Assembly: GCA_035221665.1 (NCBI GenBank)
Contig: CM069142.1
Span: forward strand, 60,574,001 to 60,638,000
Origin: Okamejei kenojei
Taxonomy: Eukaryota
DNA length: 64,000 nt
Direction of reading: 5' to 3'
The notes under the pieces are model-generated. The model worked only from the letters and a program-made list of their open reading frames with translations, searched no databases and had not been told where the DNA came from. Every line of letters begins with the position of its first letter. The first letter of the stretch is position 1. The position numbers and the translations under genes are program-made. Positions 9,056 to 61,369 of this stretch are shown here, one piece after another.

Positions 9056-9102
9056 AAAGGCTGGGGGGAGGGACTCGGGTAGAGGGGGCTAGGGGTCAGA
9101 GT

Positions 9103-27738: not shown

Positions 27739-27785
27739 GTGCGCTGTGTAAGCCAAGGCAGGAGGCCATGGCCGGGGGAGATAAT

Positions 27786-28067
27786 AAACATAGAGACGAA
27801 TGTAACCTGTAAATATTGTGTCAGTATTATTATTCCAGATCTTAGACGAAGATGTGACATTAGTGTGTGGGGATCGCCAGTCGGTGCAGACTCTGTGGGC
27901 CGAAGGGCCTGTTTCCGCGCTGTATCTCTAAACATAGAGACGAATGTAACCTGTAAATATTGTGTCAGTATTATTATTCCACATCTTAGGCGAAGATGTG
28001 ACATTAGTGTGTGGGGATCGCCAGTCGGTGGGCTGAAGGGCCTGTTTCCGCGCTGTATCTCTAAACT
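27786..28067 (+). repeat. ~144-bp local tandem duplication (LTR end + SINE tail)
   Basis: TAAACATAGAGACGAATG...GATGTGACATTAGTGTGTGGGG...CTCTAAAC occurs twice, with TAAAC microhomology at the junction. Confidence 0.85.
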
Positions 28068-28921
28068 AATAAAAAAACTAACTACAAGGGTACAACAGGC
28101 AAGCTATGAGAATGAAATACATGATTTAATTCTCCCCCTATCTTACCCGAACTTGGATTTCAATCACAGACTCTGGGTTTTCATTTCTGGGCATTTTTAT
28201 CCTGATGTTCGGGAGGTTGACTGGCATTGAGTTTGCAATTAGAGGCTCCAAACTGTTGTCGCCCAATGTCTACATGCACAGTCTTGATATCGGTCGATAA
28301 TCAGGCTCCCTCTAAGGAGATTCAGATCAATTCTTGTTGCTTCATCACACATCTGACATACCATCAAACAGAATCCAAGATCATCTTGGTCTGGCTGCAC
28401 CTATCCACTGAGCTACTGGAATAATTTATATTATGCATTTATTAAGAAATTATCCAGGTTAGTGCCGACTAATAATAAAAAAACTAAACTTTCCTAAACG
28501 TTAATAGTAATGTCAATATGCTTTGAAATGCTCTCAGATCAAGGCATTCTATGTCCATTTATAACAATAATAATAATAACATAATAAATCTTTTCTTTCC
28601 TGGATATTACAGGCTTGATATGTCTTCAGTAAAATATTCTGCAATAACTGTAGTTTGACATGATCATAATGTAAGAAGATTTGTCTGTTAAAGCAAACTA
28701 TAACATTAGAAATATTTTATAAAAGTCATACATCACCAATTAATGTATTCTACTCTCATACATGTTGATAGATTTTGACAGGGTTATATTGGGCAAATTA
28801 CTAGTATCTTAGTTTAGTTATAGTGAGATATAACACCGATTCCATGCCGACCAGCGATCCCCGCATGCTTACACTATCCTTCACACACAGGAGACAATTT
28901 ACGATTAAACCAAGCCAATTA

Positions 28922-29238
28922 TGGTGCTGTCCCACTGTACGAGCTAATGCAAGAGTTCTCCCGAGTTTCCCCTGATTCGAACTTGGGGAATTACGGTAAT
29001 AGCCGCTCGTAGGTACTCGGGGCTCTCGTGGACATTTTTTAACATGCTGAAAAATCTTCACGAGTCTTCACGAGCTTACCGCGTTTCCCGAGTACCTGCC
29101 GTTAGCGTTACGAGCCGTTAAGAGACGTCCCGAGCTCCGACATACCCGCAACGTACACTCTACGTGCTTACCATGAGTTCGATTTCTTTTTAAACTCGGG
29201 AGAGCTCTTGAATTAGCTCGTACAGTGGGACAGCCCCT
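28922..29238. mobile_element. PIF/Harbinger-like MITE inside an HE1-like SINE (duplicate at 44923-45241)
   Basis: TIRs (T)GGTGCTGTCCCACTGTACGAGCTAAT / ATTAGCTCGTACAGTGGGACAGCCCCT; TTA TSD. Confidence 0.85.
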
Positions 29239-31044
29239 TTAGCATATAAGCCTGTCTGTCTTTGGAATGTGGGAAGAAACCGGTGATCCCAGAGAAAATC
29301 CACGTAGATCACATCACAAACTCCGTACAGACAGCACCCGCAGTTAAGATCGAACCCGAGTCGCAGGCGCTGTAAGGCTGCAACTCTACTGCTGCACCAC
29401 CATACCGTGTCATTATCAATGTGGAGGCCACTACTGTTAATTTATCACAGACATATTTTTCATATTCCAACAGACATTGATTAGTTTTGACGTTTGTCCA
29501 TAACTCACCCCCTTTTTAAGGGAATACAATTTATTCGAGAATTAGCAAATTGTTGTTAAACACTATCAATTGATTTTAGATTTGGGAAAAGACGAACAAA
29601 CTATAAGACTGCGAAACTCGAGTACATCGACAGAGTAAGCCGACAAAAATTGTATTGATTACCTCATACCATTGTAAGGGAGAGAGGGCTGATTGATTGA
29701 TAACTTTAATGGGGAACATTTCATTACTGATAAACAAAATACTTCTGCCATAACACCAGCGCTTAACAACAAAAAAAACCAAGCCCAATGCCAAAGTAGT
29801 ATCTAAACTGCCTACGTAGACTTATACAATGGGACAATAACTAACTCCGTATTCCATAGTAAGCTATCTACATGTTAATAAGCATACACAAATTAAGCAT
29901 GCAGATATATATTCAGTAAAGAGGCGATTGAGTGTTTTAGATGTCTTCTTGATTTTGGAGAAGGCCAATTGACTCACCTGACCTTTTCCAGAACCTCATT
30001 TAGCTCTAGTGGTTCCTTGATACACACCTCTAAAAATTGTATCAATTAAAATAGTTACAGAATTCTTTGAAGTATGAATATTAAAAATCAGGGTGAAAAT
30101 CATTAATGGTCACCAATTAGTGTTTTAGAATTGTGTATTTAAGAAATATGGTTCTATTGTCCTCATTATGAGGTGGAGCTTACTTCAAATAGACAATCCA
30201 TTATAAATCAATCCAAAGTCTGAAATAGGTTTCTACACTTGTCTGTAGAAACAGGCAGATGCTAGTTCAAAGAAGGGTCCTGACCCGATACGTCGCCTAT
30301 CCATGTTCTCCAGAGATGCTGCCTGACCCACTGAGACACTTTAGCATGTGTGTCTTTCCTTATGCAATTGTCTCCTTTGTAAACAAGGTCACAGTTTAAT
30401 ACTGTGGACGTCTGTACCTTCTGAGAACTATTCTTCATTTGTTAACTCAGAGGGAAAATGGTGTCAGGAGACTTGGATAAACATGGACCTAATTCTGCCG
30501 TTAGTTTCGTTTAGAGATACAGCACGGAAACAGGCCCTTCGGCCCACCATGTCCGCGCAGACCAGTGATCCCCGTACTCTAGCACTCTGCTACACACAAT
30601 TTACAATTTTTCCCAAATCCAATTAACCAACAAAGCTGTCCATCTTTGGAGTGTGGGAGGAAATTGGAGCACCTGGGGAAAACGTACAAACTCCATTTAG
30701 ACAGCACCCGACGTCAGGTTCGAACCCGGGTCTCTGGCATTGTAAAGCAGCAACTCTACTACTGCGCCACCGGTCACCCTATTGTTGTTAGTTATTGCAT
30801 CCCCCCCCCCCATGTAAACATTTCAGCAAAATTAATATTCTTCATTTCCCTGGTCCAAGGACACCACAGCCCACAAACGAGTCTACTACAATAATTGAGA
30901 CATCCCAACTCAGTATTACTCCCAACATGACATCTATCTGTATCCTTCTCACGGACTGCATTTGATATAAATTGTGACCCATCAGTAAATCGTGGCATTA
31001 AATAAACCCTGCTTCACTCCAGTACACAAGGCATTTATACTTAC

Positions 31045-31344
31045 TCGGCTTCACCGTGATGAATAGTGCAGTCGTTTTCGGCTGAGGAAGAGCTTTAATG
31101 TTGGCCAGACACATAATCTCAGCGCTGACACTAAGGGAAAGGGTTAAAGTGCTGAAGGTATTGTAGAGATTATCTGAAGACCGATGGACAATGGTGGAGT
31201 ACATTTTTGAATCCATGTTTGTGTTGGTTTTTTTCCATAGGATAGCTGGTGCAGGATTCCAACCTTCTGCCTTACAGACAATGGTGAAGACACGGTGTTG
31301 CTCAACAGATGGAATCTCCTTCGCAAAAGACAGCTGGCCATCAA
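31045..31344 (-). CDS. IGSF5: IGSF5-like second Ig (C-type) exon, copy A, intact
   Basis: cccacAG acceptor and A|GTAAGT donor; 300 nt, phase 1-1. Reads VDGQLSFAKE..IVCKAEGWNPAPAILW..STLTLS..IMCLANIKALPQPKTTALFITVKP, with the Ig Cys pair and Trp. Confidence 0.85.
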
Positions 31345-34324
31345 CTGTGGGAGAATAAGAACAGACATTTTGTTTTGTGCACTGTCTTAACAGTGATGAA
31401 CATGTCCTTTAAGCTAATAAATGCCCATGAATTGAAACAACTCTTAAAATGTCTTATTTTTCTTTACTTTAGACTATGGAGATGTAGTACGGAAACAGGC
31501 CCTTCGTCCATCAAGTCTGCGCCGATCAGCGATCACCCCGTACACTAGCACAATCCTACAATTTATAATTTAACCTAAGCCGATTAACCTACAACTTTCA
31601 CGTCTTTGAAATGTGGGGGGGGGAACTGGAGCACCCGGAGAAGACCCAGGAAGAAACATAAAAATTCTGTACAGACAGCACCCGTAGTCAGGATCGAACC
31701 CGACTCTCTTGCGCTGTAAGGCAGCAACTCTATTTTCCCTTGTTATATAACTGAGTTATGGTGGAACAGTGGTGCAAATGGTAGAGTTACTGCCTCGCAT
31801 CGCCAGATACCCGGGTTCGATCCTGACCTCGGGTACTGTCTGTATGGAGTTTGCATGTTCTCCCTGTGACCACATAGGTTTTCTCCGGGTCCTCCGCATA
31901 CATCCCACATCTCAAAGAAATGTGTGTCGGCAGGTTAATTAGCCTCTTTAAATTGCCCTAGTGTATAGGTGTGCAGAAATAGTATGTGAACGATGATCGA
32001 TGGTCAGCATGGACTTGATGGGTGAAGGGCCTGTTTCCATGCTCTATCTCTATAAAAAATTCCTATTCCCCTCCTTACGCATGTGAGATTCTGACATTTT
32101 ATTCTCTTTGATTGCCCTTCCTCCTAATTGCCTTATGAAAACTTGAACCACTTCAAGCACTCCATAGTGCTTGGATATAACTGAGTGACGAGCTGGGTGT
32201 CTTCACATGGTGGTTTAGAGTCAATTGCCTTATTGTGGGCATGGAGTCATACCCAGTGTCACGCAGTGCCCAGTGCCCAGACACCAGTGCCCAGTGTCAC
32301 GTAGCATTAAAGATTTCTCTCCTTAAACAGACGGAAGGATTGTTAGCATCCAACGCTTTTATAGACACATTTCCAAATTCTTATTTCTAGATATTTAAGA
32401 ATGCAATGCCAATTCTTAAACTGCCTTGGGAACTGACGCATATCGACAATGAGTTGGTGAATGGGGCATTAAGACTGCCAGGCTGAACACTGGAGATTAC
32501 AAGGAGCATCAAGGTGCTAAGCTCTATGTTCTTGCAGGAGGTTCTACAGCAATGTGAGACCATGGTCTCCATTCTGAAGGTCATGTGTATTTTTTTGTAA
32601 GGGCTCCGCACCAATCCCATCACACAGCACCTACTGGTACAGGCAATGGGCAGAGGTGGCCCATATACAGGCCACAGAAGACCTTTCTTTTGTCCATCAG
32701 ATCTCACTAGCTGGGGGTCAGCATTGGTTGGGATGGATTAGTGGGGCTGAAGGGCCTGTTTCCGTGCTGAATAACTCCATGACTCTATGCAAGCAAGAAG
32801 CTCGAAAGGACGACAGCGGAGCTATCAAGGAGCCGCTTGCCGTCTGTCTGAGTGGAGAGGTAGCAATCGTGTGCAAACCATTCCTCTGGATCAATTGCTG
32901 CTCTGATTGATCTCAGGCGTGCAGCCATGAGGAGCTCATGGTCCCAGAGGGGCAAGGTGATGCTGCTCGTCTAGTAACAGGATGCTACTGATGTATTGGA
33001 AGACATGGCATGTCGAGAGATTACCATCCACGAGCGAAATGCTCTGGCACAGAAGCATTGTGGCTCCTTTTTGCCCTCCTATTAAATACATGAGGTGTAT
33101 ATAGGGTAGGCATTCTTTCCCATGATAGCGGGTGTAAAAAAAAACAGGATGGCACAGGTTTAAGATGAGAGGAAAGAGATTTGAAAGGATTTGACGAGGA
33201 AGTGTTTTAAACTGAGAGTGATTGGCATGCTGGTGGAGCTGGTGTGATGCATTCACTACAATTAAGAGGCACCTAGAAAGGCACAGAACATAGAACATAG
33301 AAATGTACAGGAACAGGCCCATCAACCCAAAGTGTCCAAGGCAAATATGATGTCAAGTTAAACTAATCTGCTCTACCTGCATGTGATCCATATCCTTCCA
33401 TTCACCGCATACCCATGTGCCTGTCTGTAAGCCTATTGGCGATTCGGCCTCCACCGCTGCCCCTGTCACCCACCACTCTCTGTGTAAAAAAACCTTCCCT
33501 GCACATCTTCTGTAAACTTTGCACCTCTCATCTTAAAGCCTTGCCTCTGGTCTTGGACATTCCCACCTAGGAACAAGGTTCTGACTATTAACCTCCCTGT
33601 CACATGAACCAATCACTGACTATTAACCAATCTATACCCTATCTAAACCTGTTTAAATATATTTTAAACATTGTAATTGTACCAGTCATCTTGTTCCACA
33701 TCTCACCAGGGTATGTACGCTGCCCTTCGGATCCCCTTTAAATCTTTCCCTTTTCACCTTAAATGTCCTCTAATTTCCAACTCTCTTAACCTGCAAAATG
33801 GGCAGTGACCATCCACCTTGTGGAGGTATGCAAATGTTCCTCATGACTTTACATACTTCCATAAGGTCTCCTACACTCAGTCTCCCACACTTCAGGCAGA
33901 AGATGTCCAGACTATCGGGACTCTCCTTATAATTAAGCCACAGTACTCCAAGTGTGGTCTCACCAATGGCTTGTACAAATGTAATCAGGAATATCCCAAT
34001 TCCTATACTCAATGCCTCCGGGAGGTCTCATCAATGACCACACTACAACTTCCAATAAGCCCTGAACTACATAGACTATTATTGTTACTATTGATCTATT
34101 ATTTTTTGGGGTTTTTTTATGTCCACGTATGTGTGCGTTTGTGTGTGTGTATACATATGATTATATGTGTATGTATGTATGGGTATATATGTGTACGTTA
34201 CACTTTCTGCACCACCCTGTCATAAGGTCACAAGGTCATAAGCGATAGGAGTAGAATTAGGCCATTTGGACCATCAAGTTTACTTTGCCATTCAATCATG
34301 GCTGATCTATCTTTCCCTTCTACC

Positions 34325-35062
34325 CAGGGGTGGAAAACATGGGGGTGGGGGTGGCCAGAGGCGACACGTCCCCCCCATGTTTTGAGAGGTGGGGGACATC
34401 CCCCCCCCCAAGTTTTTGTAATCCAGATTTTAAAATCTCCGCTTTCCGCGAGACTGTGGCGGTGGGATTGTTGATAGAGGGCACCGATTGGACGAGAGAG
34501 ACGTCGGTCAGCAGGCAATGGGGACGGGACATGGTGATTCAGCGCGATGATTGGAGGAGGGAGGAGTTGGGGGGGGTGTGACTGAGGATAGAGTGTGGTG
34601 ATTGGAGGAGGGAGACGTGGCACAGACCTGCGCCTCATCCGCAGCCAGGACCGATCCCGGCCGGGTCTCCGGCGCTGTCCCGTCCCCACCCGAGTGCCCC
34701 CCCCCCCCCCCCCCCCCCATGGGCCAGAGACGTCGGCAGTCAGAAGCGAGCTGTACCCCCAGGCCCACAGCCAGCGCAGAGAAGCAGCGCTAAACCCAGC
34801 TCACTCTGCCAGGTGAACCAGCCTGGGCTTGCGGGAAATATGGGCAGCGCGGAGAAGAGGCGCTGGTGTCCCTTCAGTCCAGTCAGGGCTGTAGGTTAAC
34901 CCGGCGAGACAGGCAGAGTTGAGCTGCATTTAGCACTGGGTTGAGCCTCCGAAGCCTCGCGCATGTGTGTGTGAGTGTGCGCATGCGCGCGCGGTTGCCA
35001 AAAAATTGTGTCCCCCCTGTCCCCCAGTCCCCTCCATATTTTGTAAGCGAGTTCCGCATTTG
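34325..35062. mobile_element. GC-rich hAT-like non-autonomous element inside a CR1 tail (duplicate at 50353-51069)
   Basis: 8-bp TSD CTTCTACC / CTTCTAAC; imperfect termini CAGGGGTGGAA / TTCCGCATTTG; subterminal GGGGAC/GTCCCC repeats. Confidence 0.7.
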
Positions 35063-35664
35063 CTTCTAACCCTATTCTCCTGCCTTCTCCCAATAACATC
35101 TGACACCCGTACTAATCAAGAATCAATCACTGGCTTAAAAATATCCACTGACTTGGCCTCCACAGCCTTACGTGGCAAAGAATTCCACAGGTTCACCACC
35201 CTCCGACCAAAGAAATTTCTCCTCATCACTTTACTAATCCTTTAATTCTGTGGCCACGACCCTAGTTCCAGAATCTCCCACTAGAGGAAACATCCTCTCC
35301 AGATCTCTGTCTACCGGTGTCACCAATGAGTTGTGTGTATTTTATATATACCTTCAACATAAAACAAAAATCAAGGAAAAAAGGTGGGCAAGCCATAGCT
35401 AACAAGAAATCAAACATGTTTTTTTTCTTGAGTTCACGGAAGAGACACAAAACCTTTTGAGAGTAGTAAATAATTGTATGTCTAAAATGAATGAGGAGCT
35501 CAAGGTAAATAGTAAAAACCAAGCGACGGAGTCATTAATGAGACTTAACAATGATGGATCTGCAGTAGTTGCATCCAAGAAAACTGAAGGATGTCGCCAT
35601 GGTGATAGTGGAGGTCCTGGTTGTCATCTTCTAAAATTCCATAAATTCTGAAATAGAGTTAGAT

Positions 35665-35965
35665 GGGGCAGCATGGTAGAGGTGCTGCATTACAGCGCTA
35701 GAGACCCGGGTTCGATCCTGACTACGGGCTCCGTCTGTAAGGTGTTTGTACGTTCTCCCTGTGACCACGTGGGTTTTCTCTAGGTGTTCTGTTTTTCTCC
35801 CACGCTCCCAAGACGTACAGGTTTACAGGTTAATTGGCTTCGGTAAAGATTGTAAATTGTCCCTAGTGTGTGGTATAGTGCTAGTGTACGGGGTGAGCGC
35901 TGGTTGGTGCGGACTCGGTGGACCGAAGCGCTTGTTTTTGCGCTGTATCTCTAAACTAAAACTAA
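35665..35965 (+). mobile_element. HE1-like SINE (duplicate ~51677-51980)
   Basis: tRNA head with B box, V-domain and tail. Confidence 0.82.
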
Positions 35966-36949
35966 GGACTGGAAGGCAGCAAACAGAACCCACTTATAGA
36001 AAGGCAAGAGAGGGAAAATGTGGACCTTCAGATCAGAGTCAGTCTCATGTCAGCTGTGGGAAACCTGCTGAAATCAGTTACTAAAGAAGCAGCACCAGGG
36101 CATCTCGAAAATAATAATAAGATTGGACAGAGTCACTGTGGATTTATGAAAGGGAAATCATGTTTGACAAGTCTCGAAGTATTTTGAGGTTGTAACTGGC
36201 AGAATAGACAAGGGCAAACGAGTTGATCTGGAGCATTTGAAGTTTTAGAGGCCTTCACAAAGTTGTCACATGGAGATTATTAAAAGAGATAAAGATTGCA
36301 CAGTATTGCAGGATAACATACTAGGACGGATTTAGGATTGGTTAGCTGACAGAACACAGGGAGTGTTAATAAACAGCTTCTTTCAGGGTTGAGAGGGTGT
36401 GACTACAAGAGTGCCACAAGGAAAAGAGGGTCTGCGATGCCTTACCTAGAAAGGATACCAAGGTTATAATGTCAGAAGCTCAACATGCTCAAGAGAAAAC
36501 CTGGTCGCCTTCAGACATAGCAGACTGCAAACAGAGGGGAAGGAGCTGTTCCTTGGTCTGGTGATATACGTGCTTTCAAGCTTCTGTACTTTCTGCCGAT
36601 CAGGACAAAGGAGAAGAAGGAATGACTATTGTGGGACATTTGGACACGTGAGTGAAATCCGTATCTTTTCTACGTTCGTGAGAAGCCATCAAATCCCATT
36701 TTCTGAGGTGCCGCTGGTTGCTCAGTGAAGCCAAAGGGGATGGATAAAAAAATAAAAACCGCTTCCTTGCAAATGCAGGACTTGGGTGGCCTGTTTGAAT
36801 TTGTGCTTAGCAGAAAATGGTGAGACACGGAATAGATCTAACGTGGTCATTTGGGCAGATCTGATGGCAAGGAATCTGAGAATCCCCTTGACCTTGACGA
36901 TGGAGAGAGAAGTTCAGTGACAGGTGCAGAATGCCACATTTGGCGTTGA

Positions 36950-37370
36950 AAGTAGACACAAAATGGTGCAGTAACTCAGCCGATCAGGCAGCATCTCTGG
37001 AGAAAAGGAATGGGTGACGTTTCGGGTCGAGACCCTTCTTCAGACTGAGAGTCAGGGGAGAGGGAGGCATAGAGATATTGAAGGGTAAGGTGTGGAGGAA
37101 CAGCAGCTCAAATTTCGCTTGGGCAGCTTACAACCCAGCGGTATGAATATTGACTTCCATAACTTCAAGTAACCCTTGCTTTCCCACTCGATCTCTTGAT
37201 CTCTCGCTATCACATCATTCCCTCATAGAGATATGTCTCCCTCTCCCCTGACTCTCAGTGTGAGGAAGGGTCTCGGCCCAAAACAGCACCCATTCCTTTT
37301 CTCCAGAGATGCTGCCTGTCCCGCTGAGCCATTCCAGTATTTCGTGTCCAACTTCTGTGTTCCTTCCTAA
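36950..37370. mobile_element. Penelope-derived inverted structure (duplicate ~52965-53378)
   Basis: Inverted pLTR arms enclosing an EEQQLKFRLGSLQPSGMNIDF remnant. Confidence 0.75.
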
Positions 37371-37954
37371 CACACAGCTTTGAATGAATATTTCATCATT
37401 GAGGTCCAGGTAGGTTACACCGTCTCTTGAGATTTTCTAAAAGTTGCAACTGACATGATATTGCTTCCTGCCACATCATCACTGACCCACACAGTTTGGT
37501 TTCTCCTTCAGTGCGGCCAACAGTGGAGCTGCTGAATAGCTCAGCAGATAAATGACCTGTGAAATACTCCTTGGTAGCTCTGGAGCACCCTGTGAATTTT
37601 AGAATACATTTGTGCGACTCGCAATCAATAACACAATGCCAGCACTGTGTCCACTAAATAACAAGTAGACCAGCGATGAGCTCTATCTCAAATGAGACTA
37701 TTCCATAACCATCACAATTTGGAACTTTAAGCTCCAATTTGTGCCTTTAATGGCAAAAGACACCAGCTGCTAGTGCAGTCATGTCATCATGGTGTATTGA
37801 ATGTTGGTAAATGTCAGGAGTGTTTGTATGGATCACACAGCTAAGTGCCCAGTTCTTTAGGCTTTAGATTTTATAGATACAGTGTGGAAACAGGCCCTTC
37901 GGCCCATCAGGCCCGTGCTGCCCACTGATCAACACAGGTCTCTGGCGCTGTTAA

Positions 37955-38243
37955 TGCCCCTGTCCCACTTAGGAAACCTGAACGGAAACCTCTGGGGACT
38001 TTGTGCCCCACCCAAGGTTTCCATGCGGTTCCCAGAGGTTCCCAGAGGTTTTTGTCCTCCAGCAACCACCTTCAACTAGCATCGCAACCGGCTTCGACTA
38101 AAAAATTACCGATTTTTAAAACGGGAACCACTATCGACCATTAGGGAGACTGACAAAAACCTCCGGGAACCACACGGGAACCTTGGGTAGGGCGCAAAGT
38201 CTCCAGAGGTTTCCATTCAGGTTTCCTAAGTGGGACAGGGGCA
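37955..38243. mobile_element. PIF/Harbinger-like MITE inside a SINE (duplicate 53965-54256)
   Basis: TIRs TGCCCCTGTCCCACTTAGGAAACCTGAA / TTCAGGTTTCCTAAGTGGGACAGGGGCA; TAA/GAA flanks. Confidence 0.82.
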
Positions 38244-38759
38244 GAAGGCAGCAACTCTACCGCTGCGCCACTGTGGCAACAGTAGAGCGGCAGTATTATT
38301 TTGCAGTTGGTACAATTTCACCCTGAAATGATTGTCAGCACAATCTACTCCAGAGTAAAGATAAGACACAAAGTGCTGGTGTAACTCAGCGGGTATGCAG
38401 CATCTCTGAAGAACATGGGTGGGTGACGTTTTGGGGTCAGGACTGAAGAAGGTTTTCAATCTCAAGAAGAGCCCCAACTCAAAATATTACCAATCCATTT
38501 TCTCCAGAGATGCTGCCTGACTTGTTGAGTTACTCCAGCACTATGCATTTTTTTTTTATAACCAGCATCTACAGTTCCTTTTCTTCTTCCTCCAGGTTAA
38601 ATTAGGAAAAAATGTGATTTTGACATCTAGAAAGTGTGGATACATCATCCAATTTTCAAGCATAATTGTTCAACTTATGTCGGCGCAGTGTGGTGTGGTG
38701 GTGCAGCGGCAGAGTTGCTGCCTTACCACGCCACACACCCGAGTTCGATCCTGACTACT

Positions 38760-39320
38760 GATTCAAGATTCAAGATTCAAGAGAGTTTATTGTCATGTGT
38801 CCCAGATAGGACAATGACATTCTTGCTTTGCTTCAGCACAACAGAATATAGTAGGCATAAATAAATACAGAACAGATCAGTGTGACCAAATGCCATTGAA
38901 TATATATCTATACGCATATAAAAAAGCAGATAAAGTGCAATGGGCTATTAATGTTCAGAGTTTTGTTTGAGTTGAGTTTAATAGCCTGATGGCTGTGGGG
39001 AAGTAGCTATTCCTGAACCTGGATGTTGCAGATTTCAGGCCCCTGTACCCTTTTACCTGAAGGCAGTGGGGGGATGAGTGAGTGGCCAGGATGGTGTGGG
39101 TCCTTGATGATGCTGCCAGCCTTTTTGAGGCAGCGACTGCGATAGATTCCCTCGATGGTAGGGAGGTCAGAACCGATGATAGACTGGGCAGTGTTTACAA
39201 CTTTTTGCAGTCTTTTCCGCTCCTGGGCGTTCAAGTTGCCGAACCAAGCCACGATGCGACCGGTCAGCACGCTCTCTACTGTGCACCTGTAGAAGTTCGA
39301 GAGAGTCCTCCTTGACATAC
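38760..39320 (-). mobile_element. Rex1/Babar LINE 3' fragment inside an HE1-like SINE (duplicate ~54771-55328)
   Basis: NFYRCTVESVLT..AWFGN..LQKVVNTAQSIIG..IIKDPHHPGH..LPSGKR, the typical Rex1 C-terminus; (TTGAATC)n tail. Confidence 0.88.
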
Positions 39321-40314: not shown

Positions 40315-40713
40315 AAAAGATCCTATAGCAAGCAAGATAGATCACTCGACGAAAAAGACGTAGTACGGGCATGGGCAGATTCATGGGTAATTTTCGGCCC
40401 CATTTCCGTAACCGGCTTCTGTCTCTGCACCAAAGATCCCATAGCGGAGCAAAGATACTAGTGCGGAGACGGAAGTCGGTTACGGAAACATCCTTGTAAA
40501 AATAAAAGTTATTTGGGAAAAATCTTCTCCTCATTTTCAGAATTATAATTTATTAACACAAACTGTTCCCCCGCAACGCTGATTACACTGCGAGTGGGGT
40601 TGGGTTACGGAAATGGATGAAAAAAAGGCCCATGATCCACTTTGTTGCGTACTACACGTCAGCCCATTGCATTTAGAAGGAGTGATCTATCGTACTTCGC
40701 TATAGGGTCTTTG
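40315..40713. mobile_element. Non-autonomous DNA transposon with ~33-bp TIRs and 8-bp TSD, P-element-like termini (duplicate 56330-56727)
   Basis: AAAAGATCCTATAGCAAGCAAGATAGATCACTC / GAGTGATCTATCGTACTTCGCTATAGGGTCTTTG; TSD CCTTACAG on both sides; inserted in a SINE head. Confidence 0.8.
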
Positions 40714-43327: not shown

Positions 43328-43346
43328 CAGTGAAAATTATACTGAC

Positions 43347-50300: not shown

Positions 50301-53300
50301 ATCAAGTTTACTTTGCCATTCAAGCATGGCTGATCTATCTTTCCCTTCTACCCAGGGGGGTGGAAAACATGGGGGTGGGGGTGGCCAGAGGCGACACGTC
50401 CCCCCCATGTTTTTGAGAGGTGGGGGACATCCCCCCCCCAAGTTTTTGTAATCCAGATTTTAAAATCTCCGCTTTCCGCGAGACTGTGGCGGTGGGATTG
50501 CTGATAGAGGGCACCGATTGGACGAGAGAGACGTCGGTCAGCAGGCAATGGGGACGGGACATGTTGATTCAGCGCGATGATTGGAGGAGGGAGGAGTGGG
50601 GTGTGGACTGAGGATAGAGTGTGGTGATTGGAGGAGGAGACGTGGCACAGACCTGCGCCTCATCCGCAGCCAGGACCGATCCTGGCCGGGTCTCCGGCGC
50701 TGTCCCGTCCCCACCCGAGTGCCCCCCCCCCCCCCTGGGGCCAGAGACGTCGGCAGTCAGAAGCGAGCTGTACCCCCAGGCCCACAGCCAGCGCAGAGAA
50801 GCAGCGCTAAACCCAGCTCACTCTGCCTGGTTAAACTGCCTGGGCTTGCGGGAAATATGGGCAGCGCGGAGAAGCAGCGCTGGTGTCCCATCAGTCCAGT
50901 CAGGGTTGTAGTTAACCCGGCAAGACAGGCAGAGTTGAGCTGCATTTAGCGCTGGGTTGAGCCTCCGAAGCCTCGCGCATGTGTGTGTGAGTGTGCGCAT
51001 GCGAGCGCGGCCGCCAAAAAATTGTGTCCCCCAGTCCCCTCCATATTTTGTAAGCGGGTTCCGCATTTGCTTCTAACCCTATTCTCCTGCCTTCTCCCAT
51101 TAACATCTGACACCCGTACTAATCAAGAATCAATCGCTGGCTTAAAAATATCCATTGACTTGGCCTCCACAGCCTTATGTGGCAAAGAATTCCACAGATT
51201 CACCACCCTCCGACCAAAGAAATTTCTCCTCATCACTTTACTAATCCTTTAATTCTGAGGCCACGACCCCTAGTCCCAGAATCTCCCACTAGAGGAAACA
51301 TCCTCTCCAGATCTCTGTCTACCGGTGTCACCAATGAGTTGTGTGTATTTTATATATACCTTCAACATAAAACAAAAATCAAGGAAAAAAGGTGGGCAAG
51401 CCATAGCTAACAAGAAATCAAACATGTTTTTTTTCTTGAGTTCACGGAAGAGACACAAAACCTATTGAGAGTAGGCTAAATAATTGTATGTCTAAAATGA
51501 ATGAGGAGCTCAAGGTAAATAGTAAAAACCAAGCGGCGGAGTCATTAATAAGACTTAACAATGATGGATCTGCAGTAGTTGCATCCCCAAGAAAACTGAA
51601 GGATGTCGCCATGGTGATAGTGGAGGTCCTGGTTGTCATCTTCTAAAATTCCCCTAAATTCTGAAATAGAGTTAGATGGGCAGCACGGTAGAAGGTGCTG
51701 CATTACAGTGCTAGAGACCCGGGTTCGATCCTGACTACGGGCTCCGTCTGTAAGGTGTTTGTACTTTCTCCCTGTGACCACGTGGGTTTTCTCTAGGTGT
51801 TCTGTTTTTCTCCCACGCTCCCAAGACGTACAGGTTTACAGGTTAATTGGCTTCGGTAAAGATTGTAAATTGTCCCTAGTGTGTGGTATAGTGCTAATGT
51901 ACGGGGTTGAGCGCTGGTTGGTGCGGACTCGGTGGAACCGAAGCGCTTGTTTTTGCGCTGTATCTCTAAACTAAAACTAAGGACTGGAAGGCAGCAAACA
52001 GAACCCACTTATAGAAAGGCAAAGAGAGGAAAATGTGTACTGACCTTCAGATCAGAGTCAGTCTCATGTCAGCTTGTGGGAAACCTGCTGAAATCAGTTA
52101 CTAAAGAAGCAGCACCAGGGCATCTCGAAAATAATAATAAGATTGGACAGAGTCACTGTGGATTTATGAAAGGGAAATCATGTTGACAAGTCTCGAAGTA
52201 TTTTGAGGTTGTAACTGGCAGAATAGACAAGGGCAAACGAGTTGATCTGGAGCATTTGAAGTTTTAGAGGCCTTCACAAGGTTGTCCACATTGGAGATTA
52301 TTAAAAGAGATAAAGATTGCACGTAATTGCAGGATAACATACTAGGACGGATTTAGATTGGTTTAGCTGAGCAGAACACAGGGAGTGTTAATAAACGCTT
52401 CTTTCAGGGTTGAGAGGTGTGACTACAAAGAGTGCCACAAGGAAAAGAGGGTCTGGCGATGCCTTACCTAGAAAGGATACCAAGGTTATAATGTCAGAAG
52501 CTCAACATGCTCAAGAGAAAACCTGGTCGCCTTCAGACATAGCAGACTGCAAACAGAGGGGAAGGAGCTGCCTTGGTCTGGTGAATATACTGCTTTCAAG
52601 CTCGTACTTTCTGCCGATCAGACAAAGGAGAAGAAGGAATGACTATTGTGGACATTTGGACACGTGAGTGAAATCCGTATCTTTTTCTCGTCGTGAAAGC
52701 CATCAAATCCCATTTTCTGAGGTGGCCGCTGGTTGCTCAGTGAAGCCAAAGGGGATGGATAAAAAAATAAAAACTTCCTTGCCAAATGCAGGACTTGGGT
52801 GGCCTGTTTGAATTTGTGGCTTAGCAGAAAATGGTGAGACACGGAATAGATCTAACGTGGTCATTTTGGGCAGATCTGATGGCAAGGAATCTGAGAATCG
52901 CCTTGACCTTGACGATGGAGAGAGAAGTTCAGTGACAGGTGCAGAATGCCACATTTGGCGTTGAAAGTAGACACAAAATGGTGCAGTAACTCAGCCGATC
53001 AGCAGCATCTCTGGAGAAAAGGAATGGGTGACGTTTCGGGTCGAGACCCTTCTTCAACTGAGAGTCAGTGGAGAGGAGGCATAGAGATATTGAAGGGTAA
53101 GGGTGGAGGAACAGCAGCTTAAATTTCGCTTGGGCAGCTTACAACCCAGCGGTATGAATATTGACTTCCATAACTTCAAGTAACCCTTGCTTTCCGCTCG
53201 ATCTCTTGGATCTCTCGCTATCACCTCATTCCCTCATAGAGATATGTCTCCCCTCCCCTGACTCTCAGTGTGAGGAAGGGTCTCGACCCAAAACAGCACC

Positions 53301-56300
53301 ATTCCTTTTTCTCAGAGATGCTGCCTGTCCCCTGAGCCATTCCAGCATTTCGTGTCCAACTTCTGTGTTCCTTCCTAACACACAGCTTTGAATGAATATT
53401 TTATCATTGAGGTCCAGGTAGTTACAACACCGTCTCTTGAGATTTTCTAAAGTTGCAACTGACATTGATATTGCTTCCTGCCACATCACCACTGACCCAC
53501 ACAGTTTGGTTTCTCCTTCAGTGCGGCCCACAGTGGAGCTGCTGAATAGCTCAGCAGATAAATGACCTGTGAAATACTCCTTGGTAGCTCTGGAGCACCC
53601 TGTGAATTTTAGAATACATTTGTGCGACTCACAATCAATAACACAATGCCAGCATTGTGTCCACTAAATAACAAGTAGACCAGCGATGAGCTCTATCTCA
53701 AATGAGACTATTCCATAACCATCACAATTTGGAACTTTAAGCTCCAATTTGTGCCTTTAATGGCAAAAGACACCAGCTGCTAGTGCAGTCATGTCATCAT
53801 GGTGTATTGAATGTTGGTAAATGTCAGGAGTGTTTGTATGGATCACACAGCTAAGTGCCCAGTTCTTTAGGCTTTAGATTTTATAGATACAGTGTGGAAA
53901 CAGGCCCTTCGGCCCATCAGGCCCGTGCTGCCCACTGATCAACCCAGGTCTCTGGCGCTGTTAATGCCTCTGTCCCACTTAGGAAACCTGAACGGAAACC
54001 TCTGGAGACTTTGTGCCCCACCCAAGGTTTCCATGCGGTTCCCAGAGGCTCCCAGAGGTTTTTGTCCTCCAGCAACCACCTTCAACTAGCATCGCAACCG
54101 GCTTCGCTAAAAAAATTACCGATTTTTAAAACGGGAAACCACTATCGACCATTAGGGAGGGACTGACAAAAACCTCCGGGAACCACACGGGAACCTTGGG
54201 TAGGGCGCAAAGTCTCCAGAGGTTTCCATTCAGGTTTCCTAAGTGGGACAGGGGCAGAAGGCAGCAACTCTACCACTGCGCCACTGTGGCAACAGTAGAG
54301 CGGCAGTATTATTTTGCAGTTGGTACAATTTCACCCTGAAATGATTGTCAGCACAATCTACTCCAGAGTAAAGATAAGACACAAAGTGCTGGTGTAACTC
54401 AGCGGGTATGCAGCATCTCTGAAGAACATGGGTGGGTGACGTTTTGGGGTCAGGACTGAAGAAGGTTTTCAATCTCAAGAAGAGCCCCAACTCAAAATAT
54501 TACCAATCCATTTTCTCCAGAGATGCTGCCTGACTTGTTGAGTTACTCCAGCACTATGCATTTTTTTTTATAACCAGCATCTACAGTTCCTTTTCTTCTT
54601 CCTCCAGGTTAAATTAGGAAAAAATGTGATTTTGACATCTAGAAAGTGTGGATACATCATCCAATTTCAAGCATAATTGTTCAACTTATGTCGGCGCAGT
54701 GTGGTGTGGTGGTTGCAGCGGCAGAGTTGCTGCTTACCACGCCACACACCCGAGTTCGATCCTGACTACTGATTCAAGATTCAAGATTCAAGAGAGTTTA
54801 TTGTCATGTGTCCAGATAGGACCAATGACATTCTTGCTTTGCTTCAGCACAACAGAATATAGTAGGCATAAATAAATACAGAACAGATCAGTGTGACAAA
54901 TGCCATTGAATATATATCTATACGCATATAAAAAAGCAGATAAAGTGCACATGGGTACTAATGTTCAGAGTATTGTTGAGTTGAGTTTAATAGCCTGATG
55001 GCTGTGGGGAAGTAGCTATTCCTGAACCTGGATGTTGCAGATTTCAGGCTCCTGTACCCTTTTACCTGAAGGCAGTGGGGAGATGAGTGAGTGGCCAGGA
55101 TGGTGTGGGTCCTTGATGATGCTGCCAGCCTTTTTGAGGCAGCGACTGCGATAGATTCCCTCGATGGTAGGGAGGTCAGAACCGATGATAGACTGGGCAG
55201 TGTTTACAACTTTTTGCAGTCTTTTCCGCTCCTGGGCGTTCAAGTTGCGAACCAAGCCACGATGCGACGGTCAGCACGCTCTCTACTGTGCACCTGTAGA
55301 AGTTCGAGAGAGTCCTCCTTGGACATACCTGTCTGTACAGTTGTACGTTCTCCATGTGTCCACATGGGTGTTCTGGTTTTGGTCTCACACTCCAAAAACG
55401 TGCAGGTTTGTAGGTTAATTGGCTTTGGTTAAAATCGCAAATTGTCCCCAACGTGTAGTTGGGGCTGGTGTGTGGGGATCGCTGGTCGCGCGGGACTCAG
55501 TGGTCGAAGGGCCTGCCTCAGCACTAAACGAAAAAAAAACTAAAAGTTCCATTCCTTAACCATGCTTAATGCACGCTTATGCAGCTCTAGGGTTTAACAT
55601 TATAACGTTCCCGCAAAGCACCTTAGACCACCTTACTGCATTAATGCAAGCTTGTGAGTGGAAACATATAGCGCTGCTTGCGTACCCACTGGGGAATGGA
55701 TGTTTGTGATTGTGTATGTGAGAGTAAATAAAAAGGACAAAGTAGGATAAAAAAAACTACATTCTCATGTGTCTGAAGAGGTGAACAGAAACTGTACACA
55801 CACAAAAATCAAAACAGAAGATGAAAAGCAAAGCAAGCAAGGGGGCAATTGCAAAGGATTGCCATCAGTCTAGTAACAGGCAACTGTCATGATGCATTTC
55901 TTTTGATCTTTCGGAGAGTCCCTGTAACCCCCCCTCTGTTTTCGCTCCCTTCTCTACCGCATCTTCCACTCAAACCTCTGATCTTGTTAGGTGAAAGAGT
56001 GGTTTGATCGTCACATCAATTTGAACTGTGGGTCGGCAGCAACGCAGAAGCAGGACCTAAAATAATGAGCTCACGCTGCCCTTATCTTTACACCATCCTG
56101 ACACAAATAATGAGGAAGTGCTATGTTGGTTTGAAGCAGAGGTCAAAACAATTTACAAGACAGAACGCAAGAACCAAAGCTGCATTAGAAATAATGAGCG
56201 AGATGAAAGAAGAGAAAATATTTTTAACGCCAAGTAAAATGTTGCAAAATTAGTTTTTAAGCGACAGAAGGAATCCAGGGTGAACTTTACCTTAAACGGT

Positions 56301-59300
56301 GATGCAGCGGAAGAGTTGGTTCCTTACAGAAAAGATCCTATAGCAAGCAAGATAGATCACTCGACGAAAAAGACGTAGTACGGGCATGGGCAGATTCTGG
56401 GTAAATTTTCGGCCCATTTCCGTAACCGGCTTCCGTCTCTGCACCAAAGATCCCATAGCGGAGCAAAGATACTAGTGCAGGGACGGAAGTCGGTTACGGA
56501 AACATCCTTGTAAAAATAAAAGTTATTTGGGAAAAATCTTCTCCTCATTTTCAGAATTATAATTTATTAACACAAACTGTTCCCCCCGCAACGCTGATTA
56601 CACTGCGAGTGGGGTCGGTTTACGGAAATGGATGAAAAAAAGGCCCATGATCCACTTTGTTGCGTACTACACGTCAGCCCATTGCATTCTCAGGAGTGAT
56701 CTATCGTACTTCGCTATAGGGTCTTTGCCTTACAGCGCCAGACCTCCGGGTCAGATCCTGACTACGGGTGCTTGTCTGTACGGAATATTACCTTCTCCTC
56801 CTGACCTGTATGGTTTTTCTCCGAGATCTTCGGGTTCCTCTCACACTCCAAAGACATCCAGGTTTGTAGGTTAATTGGCTTGGTATAAATGTAAATTGTC
56901 CTTAGTGTATGTGGGATCGTGTTAATGTGCAAGAATCATGGGCCAAAGGGCCTGTTTCCACATTGTATCTCTAAATTCAGAGCTGCAGTTGAATGTTCTT
57001 TTCTCAAAGCATAAAGTGCTGGAATAATTCAACGGGTCAGGCAACAAATATGATGGAATGGACAGCAATATTAGAGGTCGGGACCCTTCTTCAGTCCCAT
57101 CCCAAAATGTGTCTGTCCATTTCCTCCGCAGATGCCGCTGACCCGCTGAGTTATCTGTACTTTGTATCTTACTCAGGATTCCAGTATCTGCAGTTCCTTG
57201 TGTCTCCAATGTTCTTTTCTGTTGGTTAGTACAGATCGCCATGACGTTATAAAATGGCTGAGCAGGCAAGAGGGTCTGAGTATCTTTTGCTGCTCCTATT
57301 CATACGCGATACAGAAAAGAGGGAAGGAGAGAGAATTGGAATGAAATACACAAGGAAATATCATGCTGAAATACTAAGAGGTAGCATATCATCAAAACTT
57401 GAAAATTGTGCATTTCAACCTTTGCCTGACTTTCCAAGCATACCGCAATGGTCCTGTGATCATTGTCACCTTCTCTGCATCCAACTTTTTTATCATTTCC
57501 TTTTTTCCTGTCACTTTCTCCTGCATCAAATGCCTTCGGTCAGTTTAATCACACCTAATCAACCCTTTTGTTTCTTTTCTCCCTTTATAAAGGAGTGGAG
57601 AGAAATGAGCACAAAAACAAAACACCAACCTTTTTTCTAATAAAATAGCAGGGTAATTATTTCAGAAAATATGTCAAAAATAATGATAGTCATATGGAAA
57701 CCAAGTACATAAAATTAACGTGAGCCATTTGTAGCCACCAGCTTGATTTTAAAAGGAGAATTACTCAATCATCTCCCCTCTGCAGGCCATCGTGTCGGAC
57801 CATGCAGTCTTGTTGAAACTTGTTCAAATCAAATAGCTTTGATTTCCAATGAAAGGATATTGTCACCGAATCTGAAACCTGTCTCTTTCCTATCAATGCT
57901 CTCGGACCTCCAAATATAATTGCATTTTCAGTTTTCCAGGAATCATACAATTTTCCGACCCGACCTAAAACATCACCTATCCATGTTCTCCAGCGGTGCT
58001 GCACGTGGATCTTTTTATTTAAGGGGTGTCAGGGGTTATGGGGAGAAGGCAGGAGGATGGGGTTAAGAGGGAGAGATAGATCAGCCATGATTGAACGGAG
58101 GAGTAGACTTGATGGGCCGAATGGCCTAATTCTCCCCCTATCATTTATGAACATGAAAACAGCATCTGTAGTTCCTTGTTCCTACTTTCACCAATTGTTC
58201 CTTTCAGAAAAAAATTGTCCCACTCCACTCAATACTCTGAAAATGGTTTCTTAAGAATTTCTCCAATTCCCTTTGGAAAATATTATTTAAGCTGCTCCAA
58301 ACACTCATTCAGGTAATGTCAGATCAAACAATATACTTTTATTCAAAAAATCCTGTCCTATTATTAAAATATTCATCATTGATGACCCTGTCTTCTCTGT
58401 TAAACCCTTACACAATTTGAACAGAGATTGTTAAAAAAAAAGGGGATTGAATAGATTATTAATCATTTTTGTTAACTATCTTTGGTTCAAACAGACAACA
58501 GTCCCAGATTCCAGATTCTGACTCAAGAAATACTGTGCATCTACACTATCTATTCTGGAATAGATTATGTTGAATGCACAGAGTCCTTTCCCCAAAATAG
58601 GGGAATCAGAGAACATGGTGAGTGGGGAAAGATTTAATAGGAACCTGAGGGGCAACTTTTTCACATAGATGGTGGTGGAACATGCTGCCCAGGAGGTAGT
58701 CGATGCAAAGTACCATAAGAAATTTAACAGTATTTGGACAGGTACATAGATAGGAAGGGTTTAGAGTGGCTATGGGCTACACCTGGCAGATGGGACTAGT
58801 ATAGATGGGGCATCTTGGTCGGCTTGGGCAAGTTGGGACGAAGAGCCTTCTCACATGCTGTATGACTCTATGACTCTATATCTCTACGTTTAGAAAGTAG
58901 ATGTTGTTTATTTGCACCAAAGAATTATACTGACCTAGACACAAAATGCTGGAGCAATTCAGCAAGTGATGCAGCATCTCTGGAGAGAAGGAATGGGCGA
59001 CGTTTCGGGTCGAGACCCTTCTTCAGACTGATGTCAGGGGAGGGGTGGGGCAAAGATAGAATGTAGTTGGAGACAGTAAGACTGGTGGGAGAAGGGGGAG
59101 GGGATGGAGAGAGAAAAGAAGGGCTATCTGAAGTTAGAGAAGTCAATGTTCATACCACTGGGGTTATACTACCCAAGTGAAATATGAGGTGCTGTTCCTC
59201 TAATTTGCACTGAGCCTCACTCTGACAATGGAGGAGGCCAGAAAGGTCAGATTGGGGAATGGGAGGGGGAGTTGAAGTGCTGAGCCACCGGGAATCGGGT

Positions 59301-59346
59301 AGGTTAAGAAGACTGAGCAAAGGTGTTCAGTGAAAATTATACTGAC

Positions 59347-59660
59347 CTTGTAAAACAGAATGCTGTCGATTTCCGTCAGTTTGAATGCTGCACGTTACTG
59401 CCATATTGCTGTGCGTGGTCACTGGTGAGATGATAAGTTCGGAAGTAAATGTGTACTTAGTTGTGTAGTTCTTATGTTCAAACTGGGGATTTGTATTAAC
59501 TGGTCCCTCTTTTACAATGATAAGGATGGGGTTGTCATCTATTATCCAGATGATAATTTTCCAAGGCAATGATACAGTGCAGTTGAATGCGGCATCAGAG
59601 TGGAAGCAAAGCAAAGGCGTTTTTTGGGACCTTCTATAATTGCAGTCGATAAACACACAC
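59347..59660 (-). CDS. IGSF5: IGSF5-like first Ig exon, copy B (several 1-bp indels; frameshifted as written)
   Basis: Same splice sites as copy A; 314 nt; 4 amino-acid-changing substitutions plus 7 single-base indels. Confidence 0.6.
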
Positions 59661-61369
59661 CTAAAAGATAAACAGTTGATATTGAATAACAGTACAATTC
59701 AGTCAATCTACAGGATGAATCTGAAAGAAAGGGGGAAAAATTGACAATGAAAGTAGTCTTGACTTTCAAGTCCATAACAGTCGGACTGCACTCGTAAATT
59801 TTCCACAGGGTCTGGGTATCATTAAGTGGAGACTTCAAAGGCAATGTGAATCTAACTACATTACTGTGAAATGTAGCCAATGTCAAATGTATAAGATTGT
59901 CTAATTTTAAGAGAGGAAACTATTCAAGCACAGAGGCCTATAAATAGGCCTGTGACCATTTTTTGGTATATGGGAGTATCTGGTGACGTCTGAACACAAC
60001 TCACATCTGAAAGGCAACGGAACCTATTGGGAAATGTAAAGGAAGGAACTGCAGATGCTGGTTTACACCGAAGATAGACACAAAATGCTGGAGTAACTCA
60101 GCAGCAGGCAGCAACTCTGGATAGAAGAAATGGGTGACATATTCGGGTCGAGACCCTTCTTCATCTCCGTCCCCAATAAATAACAGGATGTGACTTTTGC
60201 ACTTGATGGTAGGAAATCACAGGCTGCTGCTTGACACAACACCCACAACGCACTGTCTCCAATGGAATAATGTGATGAAGGAGAAATGGACATTGAAGAT
60301 CAAAGAATCGGAACTATTAGGACCAGATAGTTCAGTTGGGAACACTCACTCTCGCCTCCGACTCAGAAAATGTATTTCAAGTCTTATTGCAGGGAAATAA
60401 CCACAGAAGTCTAGACCCTGAAAATTCTATGTAATTTCTCTGGGGAGAGATAACTGTGGGCAATATTTACCTGGAAATATTAGGCACTGTACAGGATGTG
60501 ATAAATGGATAGATTAACAATAATTACTGCTTACTTTTTAGGTACACAGCACGGAAACAGGCCCTTTGGATTGAAGGGCCTATATCCACGGTGTATTTAA
60601 GAGAGAGTTAAATAGAGCTCTTAGGGCTAATGGAATCAAGGGATATGGGGAGAAAGTAGGAACGGGCTACTGATTTTCGATGATCAGCCGTTATCATATT
60701 TAATGGCGGTGCTGACTCGAAGGGAGGAATGGCCTACTCCTGCACCTAATTTCTATGTACCTCTAAAACTAAAAAAACTAACACTAAAAAAAACTAAATT
60801 CTTCCCAATTTTCAGCTTAGCACCTGGCATTTCCCAGGTCAAATACAGTTCACAAATAGTTGCAGATCAAACCTATGCTTATTCTCTGCACCCTCTAATT
60901 TGGAAGAAGACCTCGCATTGTTCCAGTGTGACACTGCCCACGCTTAGTACTTTAGGCCTATCAGCGACATTGCCAAGAGTGAGCAGTCTACTGCCACAGC
61001 CCTCTATCCCCTTAGAAGCAGATCGGGAGAGTCAAGCCTTATTTAACATATGATTGTAGCTGACAGATTGGACTCCCATCACACCAGTGTAGGTTGAATG
61101 TTGGCACAGAACTAAACGATGAATCATTGGTTACTAACAACACAAACACTTTCTATTGTAAACCCTTTAAGGTACCAAAATATTTGAGATGTTTCATAGG
61201 CTGTTATTGCCCAAAATTGTTATTAAACAAAACAAGTCATGCATTAGATGTTTTAGGAGACATTTCTGAGGAAAGAGAGAGAAGCGGACAGATTTATGGA
61301 AGGGATTCTAGATGTTCAAATAAAGGCAATCAAAAGTCTAACTGTCGGTGAAGAATACTTGAATTTATT

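What the first reader, a model, noticed from the sequence alone, without database searches (positions are those of the whole stretch)
27912..59910. 16-kb intragenic tandem duplication doubles exactly the V+C Ig cassette of an IGSF5-like receptor
Seen: one signal exon (63863-63908) and one TM exon (23576-23695) flank two copies of the V and C exons, all phase 1-1, so any combination splices in frame. The junction is gap-free with only a few bases of microhomology (CTAATTTTAATTTTCCGC). Known: IGSF5/JAM4 normally has two Ig domains. Inference: if real, the locus could encode a four-domain V-C-V-C receptor, or alternative two-domain isoforms (Vb-Cb, Va-Ca, Vb-Ca) with differing sequences. The alternative is a false duplication of two haplotypes in a long-read assembly.
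Basis: partly seen in the sequence, partly recalled or inferred. Interest (0 to 1): 0.75.

Follow-up and report, generated by a model that had tools for sequence, protein, structure and literature searches.

The report
Young doubled Ig cassette, skate IGSF5
A skate-like fish's cell-adhesion gene IGSF5 carries a head-to-tail 16-kb copy of its two Ig-domain exons whose join also appears in public sequencing data; the second copy reads as frameshifted here, most likely through sequencing errors, so the gene would likely make a four-domain receptor as mammalian B7-H3 does, but no such transcript has been seen.

Summary
The 16-kb tandem duplication is in the assembly (27912-43912 / 43914-59910, 97.7% alike) and doubles exactly the two Ig exons of IGSF5. 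It is probably real DNA: a contig from public run X5 crosses the junction without a gap, and the X1 contig ends exactly at the fork. As assembled, copy B's exons are 314 and 304 nt, so every mRNA using them stops early. The junction has one inserted T and no microhomology. B's indels look like long-read consensus errors: copy A matches third repeat copies at 24 of 24 indels, substitutions split 11:15, and run contigs carry B's V-exon substitutions without its indels. The real locus would likely splice to a 567-aa V-C-V-C receptor, a form seen in 0 of 100 IGSF5 proteins but well known from B7-H3. Not shown: any Cb-to-Va transcript, and reads over Cb. Crude depth hints at copy-number variation between samples. 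Verdict: a real, very young exon-cassette duplication of a known kind; modest interest.

The parts
63863..63908 (-). IGSF5 exon 1, start codon and signal peptide (46 nt, ends phase 1)
   Evidence: 16 of 16 residues match Amblyraja radiata IGSF5
43914..59910 (+). Copy B of the tandem duplication (5' copy in the gene's direction); carries nearly all indel errors, most in its right 10 kb
59347..59660 (-). Exon Vb, first Ig domain, 314 nt as assembled (7 single-base indels, 4 substitutions against Va)
   Evidence: its 4 substitutions but none of its indels are read in run contigs laid on Va
47055..47358 (-). Exon Cb, second Ig domain, 304 nt as assembled (+3, +1; 5 substitutions against Ca, 4 of them matching close relatives)
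   Evidence: not covered by the reads laid
43912..43914 (+). Head-to-tail junction: blunt, one inserted T at 43913, short direct repeat AATTTT-AATTTT across it
   Evidence: crossed by X5 record 17 (43300-43960, 0 gaps, depth 35)
27912..43912 (+). Copy A of the tandem duplication (membrane-proximal cassette), the clean copy
43347..43661 (-). Exon Va, 315 nt, phase 1-1, open; Ig fold of V/I-intermediate type; opens with VCLS, likely the signal-peptide tail
31045..31344 (-). Exon Ca, 300 nt, phase 1-1, open; Pfam C2-set_3 and C1-set above cut-off; both conserved N-glycan Asn replaced by Thr
27785..28066 (+). Small (~140 bp) tandem pair of an LTR-element piece plus SINE tail that holds the left breakpoint
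23576..23695 (-). Single transmembrane exon, 120 nt
20770..20794 (-). Cytoplasmic exon 1 (25 nt)
18031..18143 (-). Cytoplasmic exon 2 (113 nt)
14140..14201 (-). Cytoplasmic exon 3 (62 nt); the last exon, ending HVTAV-stop, lies outside the window at L008:8413-8520

Best explanation
The window holds a likely real and very young head-to-tail duplication of the V+C exon cassette of IGSF5, in which copy B's frameshifts are likely long-read consensus errors, so the gene would splice by default to a 567-aa V-C-V-C receptor, perhaps beside two-domain forms. Shown: the repeat, the exon anatomy, a run contig across the junction, B-type substitutions without B-type indels in V-exon contigs. Inferred: origin by one end-joining event (blunt join with a 1-nt insert that makes a short direct repeat, as described for synthesis-dependent end joining) at a repeat-rich left breakpoint; an open Cb; inclusion of all four exons, since both are phase 1-1, all splice sites are intact and the new Cb-Va intron is 3,393 nt. 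Predicted: the ectodomain doubles in reach while the TM and the PDZ-type tail (-TAV) stay single, and the VCLS start of Va becomes a linker with an unpaired Cys.
For: Junction: X5 record 17 lies on 43300-43960 with 0 gaps and 4 other letters at depth 35, that is 613 bases left and 47 right of the inserted T. X1 record 1 ends at 43912, the last 31-mer shared by both copies; X5's contig ends at 43960, the last 31-mer before a third local copy joins. Logan contigs are non-branching paths at k=31 with singletons dropped (10.1101/2024.07.30.605881, passages). Errors in B: 149 of 172 indels are 1 bp; copy A agrees with third repeat copies at 24 of 24 informative indels, while substitutions split 11 A to 15 B; 1-bp gaps against third copies are 16.8 per kb in B's right part and 9.8 in A's. 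Contigs show all 4 B-type V substitutions at least once and 0 of 7 B-type V indels (X1, X5); one substitution (43482) shares a 31-mer with an indel pair that is absent. 5 of 6 assessable intron indels are in the A state. No N gap. Depth over the locus against contigs from other loci: 1.74 in X1, 1.06 in X8 of organism B (crude). Two-domain product: 362 aa, open, 82% identical to A. radiata IGSF5.
Against: As assembled both B exons are out of frame. Cb and the right 13 kb of B were not covered by reads, so an open Cb is inferred. One B-type indel (45444) is supported by X1 and X5, so not every B indel is an error. Only 1 of 2 organism-A DNA runs laid shows a contig across the junction, and either run may come from the animal that was assembled. 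X5's contig passes the fork and the entry point unbroken, which needs the entry and exit paths to have been pruned (plausible, as both run into repeats within about 120 bases, but not shown). X5's depth ratio is only 1.21. A-B substitution divergence (0.5-0.9%) is of the size that two alleles could show. A's letters at 43415 and 43482 were seen in 0 of 3 contigs. B's pair of letters at 43499 and 43523 was seen together in neither X1 nor X5, so B may be a mosaic.
Confidence: 0.6

Rival explanations
1. Real duplication, but copy B is dead or skipped: at least one frameshift (for example the +1 in Cb) is genuine, or splicing goes from the signal exon to one cassette only, so only two-domain IGSF5 is made.
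For: Both B exons are out of frame as written; one B indel is real in reads (45444); Cb was not covered by reads; 0 of 100 IGSF5 proteins have a repeated domain; a free Cys in the new linker might be poorly tolerated (inference).
Against: 24 of 24 polarised indels favour A; 0 of 7 V indels in contigs; Cb keeps the ancestral residue at 4 of 5 variable sites, including two Asn found in 23 of 23 relatives, where Ca has lost them; all B splice sites are intact.
Confidence: 0.2
2. False duplication: two haplotypes, or a polished and an unpolished version of one locus, were joined end to end by the assembler.
For: B is rich in error-type indels, and erroneous k-mers mark false duplications (PMC9516828, passages); divergence is allele-sized; X5's depth ratio is 1.21; relatives have one cassette.
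Against: The junction, with its extra T, is in a depth-35 contig of X5 whose neighbouring contigs correct B's errors and so do not copy the assembly; X1 breaks exactly at the fork; no gap between the copies; X1's depth ratio is 1.74.
Confidence: 0.1
3. Real array of three or more units, or a copy-number polymorphism, collapsed to two copies, with B a noisy consensus of several units.
For: V-exon letter sets differ among A, B, X1 and X5 at sites within one 31-mer; B is unevenly noisy (1 substitution in the first 2 kb, 23-38 per 2 kb in several later bins); repeat-normalised dosage X1:X5:X8 is 1.00:0.68:0.53.
Against: Depth ratios stay under 2; two copies on two chromosomes already allow four alleles; only 2 places in the genome match each exon.
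Confidence: 0.1

Closest known systems
IGSF5 / JAM4 (two-Ig tight-junction adhesion molecule, binds MAGI-1)
   Same: SP-Va-Ca-TM-tail is 362 aa, 82% and 81% identical to the A. radiata and Rhinoraja longicauda proteins without long gaps; ends in -TAV like 15 of 23 cartilaginous-fish relatives. Function of JAM4 taken from review passages (PMC8428372; PMC9302484).
   Different: Two V+C cassettes in the gene; 0 of 100 IGSF5 proteins examined (cartilaginous fish, squamates, birds; 86 VC, 13 V only, 1 C only) have a repeated domain. No teleost or mammal sequence was returned.
CD276 / B7-H3 4Ig isoform
   Same: Tandem duplication of a V exon, a C exon and the intron between them, cassettes about 96% alike, 4Ig and 2Ig forms by alternative splicing, a new linker made by the duplication (PMC3172298, abstract and passages). 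The nearest solved two-domain structures to skate IGSF5 by sequence include BTN2A1, CD80 and PD-L1.
   Different: B7-H3's duplication is old, shared by many mammals and shown in mRNA; this one is in a different gene, seems confined to one species or part of it, and has no transcript evidence.
False heterotype/homotype duplication in long-read assemblies (Ko et al. 2022, PMC9516828)
   Same: Adjacent near-identical copies, one rich in sequence errors.
   Different: No gap between the copies, junction present in run contigs, depth not clearly halved.

Membership tests
IGSF5/JAM4 | Signal peptide, two Ig domains, one TM, cytoplasmic tail | tested here: met
   8 exons join to an open 362-aa frame using copy A; Pfam Ig hits (C above cut-off, V below); V model pLDDT 89, Ig fold
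IGSF5/JAM4 | Closest proteins are named IGSF5 | tested here: met
   14 of 14 hits of Va and 75 of 78 hits of the A. radiata protein carry the name
IGSF5/JAM4 | C-terminal PDZ-binding motif | tested here: met
   HVTAV-stop; the S/T-x-V pattern is recalled; binding to MAGI-1 not tested
IGSF5/JAM4 | Neighbourhood SH3BGR-B3GALT5-IGSF5-PCP4-DSCAM (recalled from human) | tested here: inconclusive
   Best SH3BGR-family match on the same contig 1.64 Mb away; 0 of 17 Galactosyl_T matches on this contig; PCP4 and DSCAM not searched
IGSF5/JAM4 | Tight-junction location, homophilic adhesion | not testable with these tools
   Known for mammalian JAM4 from review passages only
B7-H3-type V-C-V-C receptor gene | Tandem V and C exon pairs of matching phase between single signal and TM exons | tested here: met
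B7-H3-type V-C-V-C receptor gene | Both cassettes have open frames | tested here: inconclusive
   Not met in the assembly; V indels absent from run contigs; Cb not covered by reads
B7-H3-type V-C-V-C receptor gene | A four-domain transcript or protein exists | not testable with these tools
   Only contigs were available; see Tried and rejected
False assembly duplication (PMC9516828) | Gap or unsupported join between the copies | tested here: not met
   No N; junction crossed by an X5 contig
False assembly duplication (PMC9516828) | Half or lower read depth | tested here: inconclusive
   Contig depth only; ratios 1.74 (X1) and 1.21 (X5) against other loci, 1.06 in organism B; the tool warns that this is no copy number
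False assembly duplication (PMC9516828) | Excess of erroneous k-mers | tested here: met
   Copy B indels; also expected for an unpolished true copy
False assembly duplication (PMC9516828) | Discordant read pairs; 1-copy k-mers | not testable with these tools
   No raw reads were listed

The most novel reading that the evidence does not exclude
A four-domain IGSF5 is being born within one skate species: the duplication still varies in dosage among animals, the V-C-V-C protein is expressed, and the two cassettes are already diverging under selection (9 of 9 coding differences change the amino acid; the membrane-proximal C domain has lost two otherwise invariant N-glycan sites; a signal-peptide Cys now sits in the linker). 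It would be a living snapshot of the step that made 4Ig B7-H3.
Probability: 0.22. Interest if true: 0.65.

Novelty: new variant of a known kind. Interest (0 to 1): 0.4.

Why it matters
V-C-V-C receptors such as 4Ig B7-H3 are thought to arise by doubling a two-exon cassette, but the known case is old and fixed. A young, possibly still variable case in a junction adhesion gene would let one test whether the four-domain form is spliced at once, and what doubling the ectodomain does to adhesion. Practically, it also shows that an error-rich second copy is not by itself proof of a false duplication: here the join is in the reads while the frameshifts are not, so an annotation pipeline would likely call copy B a pseudo-cassette in error.

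Tried and rejected
No RNA holder listed; this says nothing about expression. X18 (RNA only by a guess) gave one 194-base contig inside the V exon at depth 4 and no listed splice joint; a missing joint there is no evidence. X8 (organism B) had no listed contig over the V exon or the junction, so it does not show the junction's absence. Reads could be laid only on 43300-46500, which leaves Cb, the right part of B and the single-copy flanks untested. A search with Ca for short proteins of 54-174 aa found 0 among 2 candidates. Earlier scan findings were not available. Microhomology at the junction: rejected. Retrotransposon target-site duplication: considered because of the TTTTAA at the right end, not adopted, as the break is 2 bases off the recalled cut site and no inserted element is present. 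Positive selection: 9 of 9 non-synonymous gives P=0.09 on its own; against intron substitution rates P=0.0006-0.02, but some of these letters may be errors, so it is left as a lead. MAFFT turns indel pairs into runs of mismatches (290 substitutions), so counts are from BLAST. A first try at the cytoplasmic exon edges was off and was corrected. Literature: no paper held IGSF5 + duplication + immunoglobulin domains; the listed hits had no IGSF5 mention; the primary JAM4 paper was not held. No complex prediction was run.
Full report
Observation. A self-comparison of the window gives one long direct repeat, 27912-43912 (copy A) against 43914-59910 (copy B), 97.7% identical with 152 mismatches and 160 gap openings. 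There is no N in the window or in 40 kb on either side, and no other long near-identical repeat. The gene runs on the minus strand: signal exon 63863-63908, Vb 59347-59660, Cb 47055-47358, Va 43347-43661, Ca 31045-31344, TM 23576-23695, three cytoplasmic exons and a last exon 11.5 kb beyond the window. The unit holds both Ig exons, the 12-kb intron between them and parts of the two outer introns. Each Ig exon matches 2 places in the genome, both here.

Gene identity. With copy A the 8 exons give an open 362-aa protein ending HVTAV, 82% identical to Amblyraja radiata IGSF5 and 81% to Rhinoraja longicauda, so the host is a skate-like batoid. 14 of 14 hits of Va and 75 of 78 hits of the A. radiata protein are named IGSF5 or IGSF5-like. 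The V model has pLDDT 89 and resembles I-set domains and the first domains of Kirrel and SYG-1, so 'V' is a loose label. Synteny was inconclusive.

First, the B exons are not in frame: Vb is 314 nt with 7 single-base indels against Va, Cb is 304 nt, and all 5 tested combinations that use a B exon stop at codon 55 or 31. Second, the junction has no microhomology: it is a blunt join with one extra T at 43913. That T makes a short direct repeat across the join, the kind of motif described for synthesis-dependent end joining (PMC7407515, passages); the link is my inference. The left break lies in a 140-bp tandem pair beside a rearranged LTR-element remnant.

Is the duplication real? One search listed 24 runs, all as contigs; five DNA runs of organism A (samples S1 and S2, two studies) hold 64-70% of the words. 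Four runs were laid on 43300-46500. X5 record 17 runs from 43300 to 43960 with 0 gaps at depth 35, across the junction and its extra T. X1 record 1 ends at 43912. Counting 31-mers in the local sequence shows that 43912 is exactly where the two copies fork and 43960 exactly where a third local copy merges; Logan contigs are non-branching paths at k=31 (10.1101/2024.07.30.605881, passages). I read the free record ends from the record coordinates, which for minus-strand records start at the right end. X5's neighbouring contigs correct B's errors, so they do not simply mirror the assembly. Limits: a crossing contig is listed in 1 of the 2 organism-A DNA runs laid; either may be the assembled animal; library types are not on record; and X5's unbroken contig needs the entry and exit paths to have been pruned, which is plausible because both reach repeats within about 120 bases but is not shown. 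Depth is a weak hint only: locus contigs against contigs from other loci in table 5 give 1.74 (X1), 1.21 (X5) and 1.06 (X8, organism B); normalised by repeat depth the dosage is 1.00: 0.68: 0.53. That would fit 4, 3 and 2 copies, but the tool warns that contig depth is no copy number. Against the marks of false duplication in PMC9516828 (passages): no gap, join supported, depth unclear, error excess present. I put the duplication at about 0.88 real.

Are B's frameshifts real? Between A and B there are 137 substitutions and 172 indels, 149 of them 1 bp. Where the difference falls in a repeat with third copies in the flanks, A matches at 24 of 24 indels while substitutions split 11 to 15 (only isolated events with a third copy were scored). 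One-base gaps against third copies are 16.8 per kb in B's right 10 kb, 9.8 in A's and 11.6 in the right flank. In the V exon, X1 and X5 each carry 3 of the 4 B-type substitutions (all 4 between them) and 0 of 7 B-type indels; the C at 43482 lies within one 31-mer of an indel pair that the contigs lack, so real molecules have B's letter without B's indels. Of 6 assessable intron indels, 5 are in the A state (4 of these also in organism B) and one, 45444, is in the B state. Contigs collapse variants, so absence is not proven, and Cb was not covered. The simplest reading is an unpolished second copy, which is common where reads cannot be placed uniquely (own knowledge).

Age and divergence. Substitution divergence is 0.5% (81 isolated sites) to 0.9% (137); organism B differs by 38 letters in about 1,780 bases (2.1%) over three contigs in which A and B have no substitution. 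0 of 100 IGSF5 proteins have a repeated V or C domain (the search window of 199-634 aa includes 567; no teleosts or mammals were returned). The event is therefore likely younger than the split from organism B. All 9 coding substitutions change the amino acid. Cb has the relatives' residue at 4 of 5 sites; Ca has Thr at two positions that are Asn in 23 of 23 cartilaginous-fish proteins and so has no N-glycan site left. This may be early divergence of the proximal domain or errors in A; it was not tested on reads. The V-exon letter sets in A, B, X1 and X5 are four different sets, which fits up to four alleles or a mosaic B.

How it likely works. Both exons are phase 1-1 with intact splice sites, and the new Cb-Va intron is 3,393 nt, so default splicing would give SP-Vb-Cb-Va-Ca-TM-tail, 567 aa, with skipping giving two-domain forms. 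The TM and the PDZ-type tail are unchanged, so anchoring to MAGI-type scaffolds, known for mammalian JAM4 (PMC8428372 and PMC9302484, passages), would be kept while the ectodomain doubles in length. Va begins with VCLS, which by alignment to reptile proteins likely is the end of the signal peptide; internally it would form a linker with an unpaired Cys, which could cross-link dimers or hinder export. All of this is predicted; no transcript was seen.

Comparison and verdict. The closest known case is CD276/B7-H3, whose V-C exon pair was tandemly duplicated, giving a dominant 4Ig and a minor 2Ig mRNA and a new linker (PMC3172298, abstract and passages). The searches showed no report of such a form for IGSF5; subscription journals and supplements were not searched. 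This is a new variant of a known kind: probably real, young, perhaps variable in copy number, with its most interesting product unproven. Interest 0.4.

Noticed in passing
window 31143 and 31227 (exon Ca): Both N-glycosylation Asn of the C domain, present in 23 of 23 cartilaginous-fish relatives, read Thr in copy A; copy B keeps them. Both changes sit at an A-run/C boundary, so errors are possible.
   Followed up: partly
window 24040-27860: Decayed Gypsy-like LTR-element remnant in intron 3 with integrase pieces on both strands and a 121-bp inverted pair at its ends (91% alike), so part of it seems inverted; it abuts the left breakpoint.
   Followed up: partly
window 27912-29911 vs 43914-45913: Only 1 substitution in the first 2 kb of the two copies against 9-38 per 2 kb elsewhere; local gene conversion or polishing with shared reads are both possible.
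   Followed up: no
window 8123-11999: CR1-like LINE in the last intron with a 310-aa ORF and a 790-aa endonuclease-RT frame followed by a shifted 246-aa frame.
   Followed up: partly
window 4349-5270: Tc1-like transposase remnant (DDE_3, HTH_Tnp_Tc3_2) with a 92%-alike inverted-orientation relative about 36 kb away in L010.
   Followed up: partly
L007:7125-8304 (minus strand): Two overlapping coiled-coil-like open frames (163 and 270 aa) inside the last IGSF5 intron, no Pfam match above cut-off; may be a mobile-element ORF1 or a nested retrocopy.
   Followed up: partly
G000:C20:2870076-2870620: One Galactosyl_T match is split in two frames with stops, among 17 matches; a pseudogene or another consensus error.
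   Followed up: no
P0003, P0008, P0024: Relatives have shorter annotated IGSF5 isoforms; P0003 and P0008 lack the TM exon in the alignment (P0024 is of like length, not aligned), so exon skipping next to the cassette may be common in this gene.
   Followed up: no
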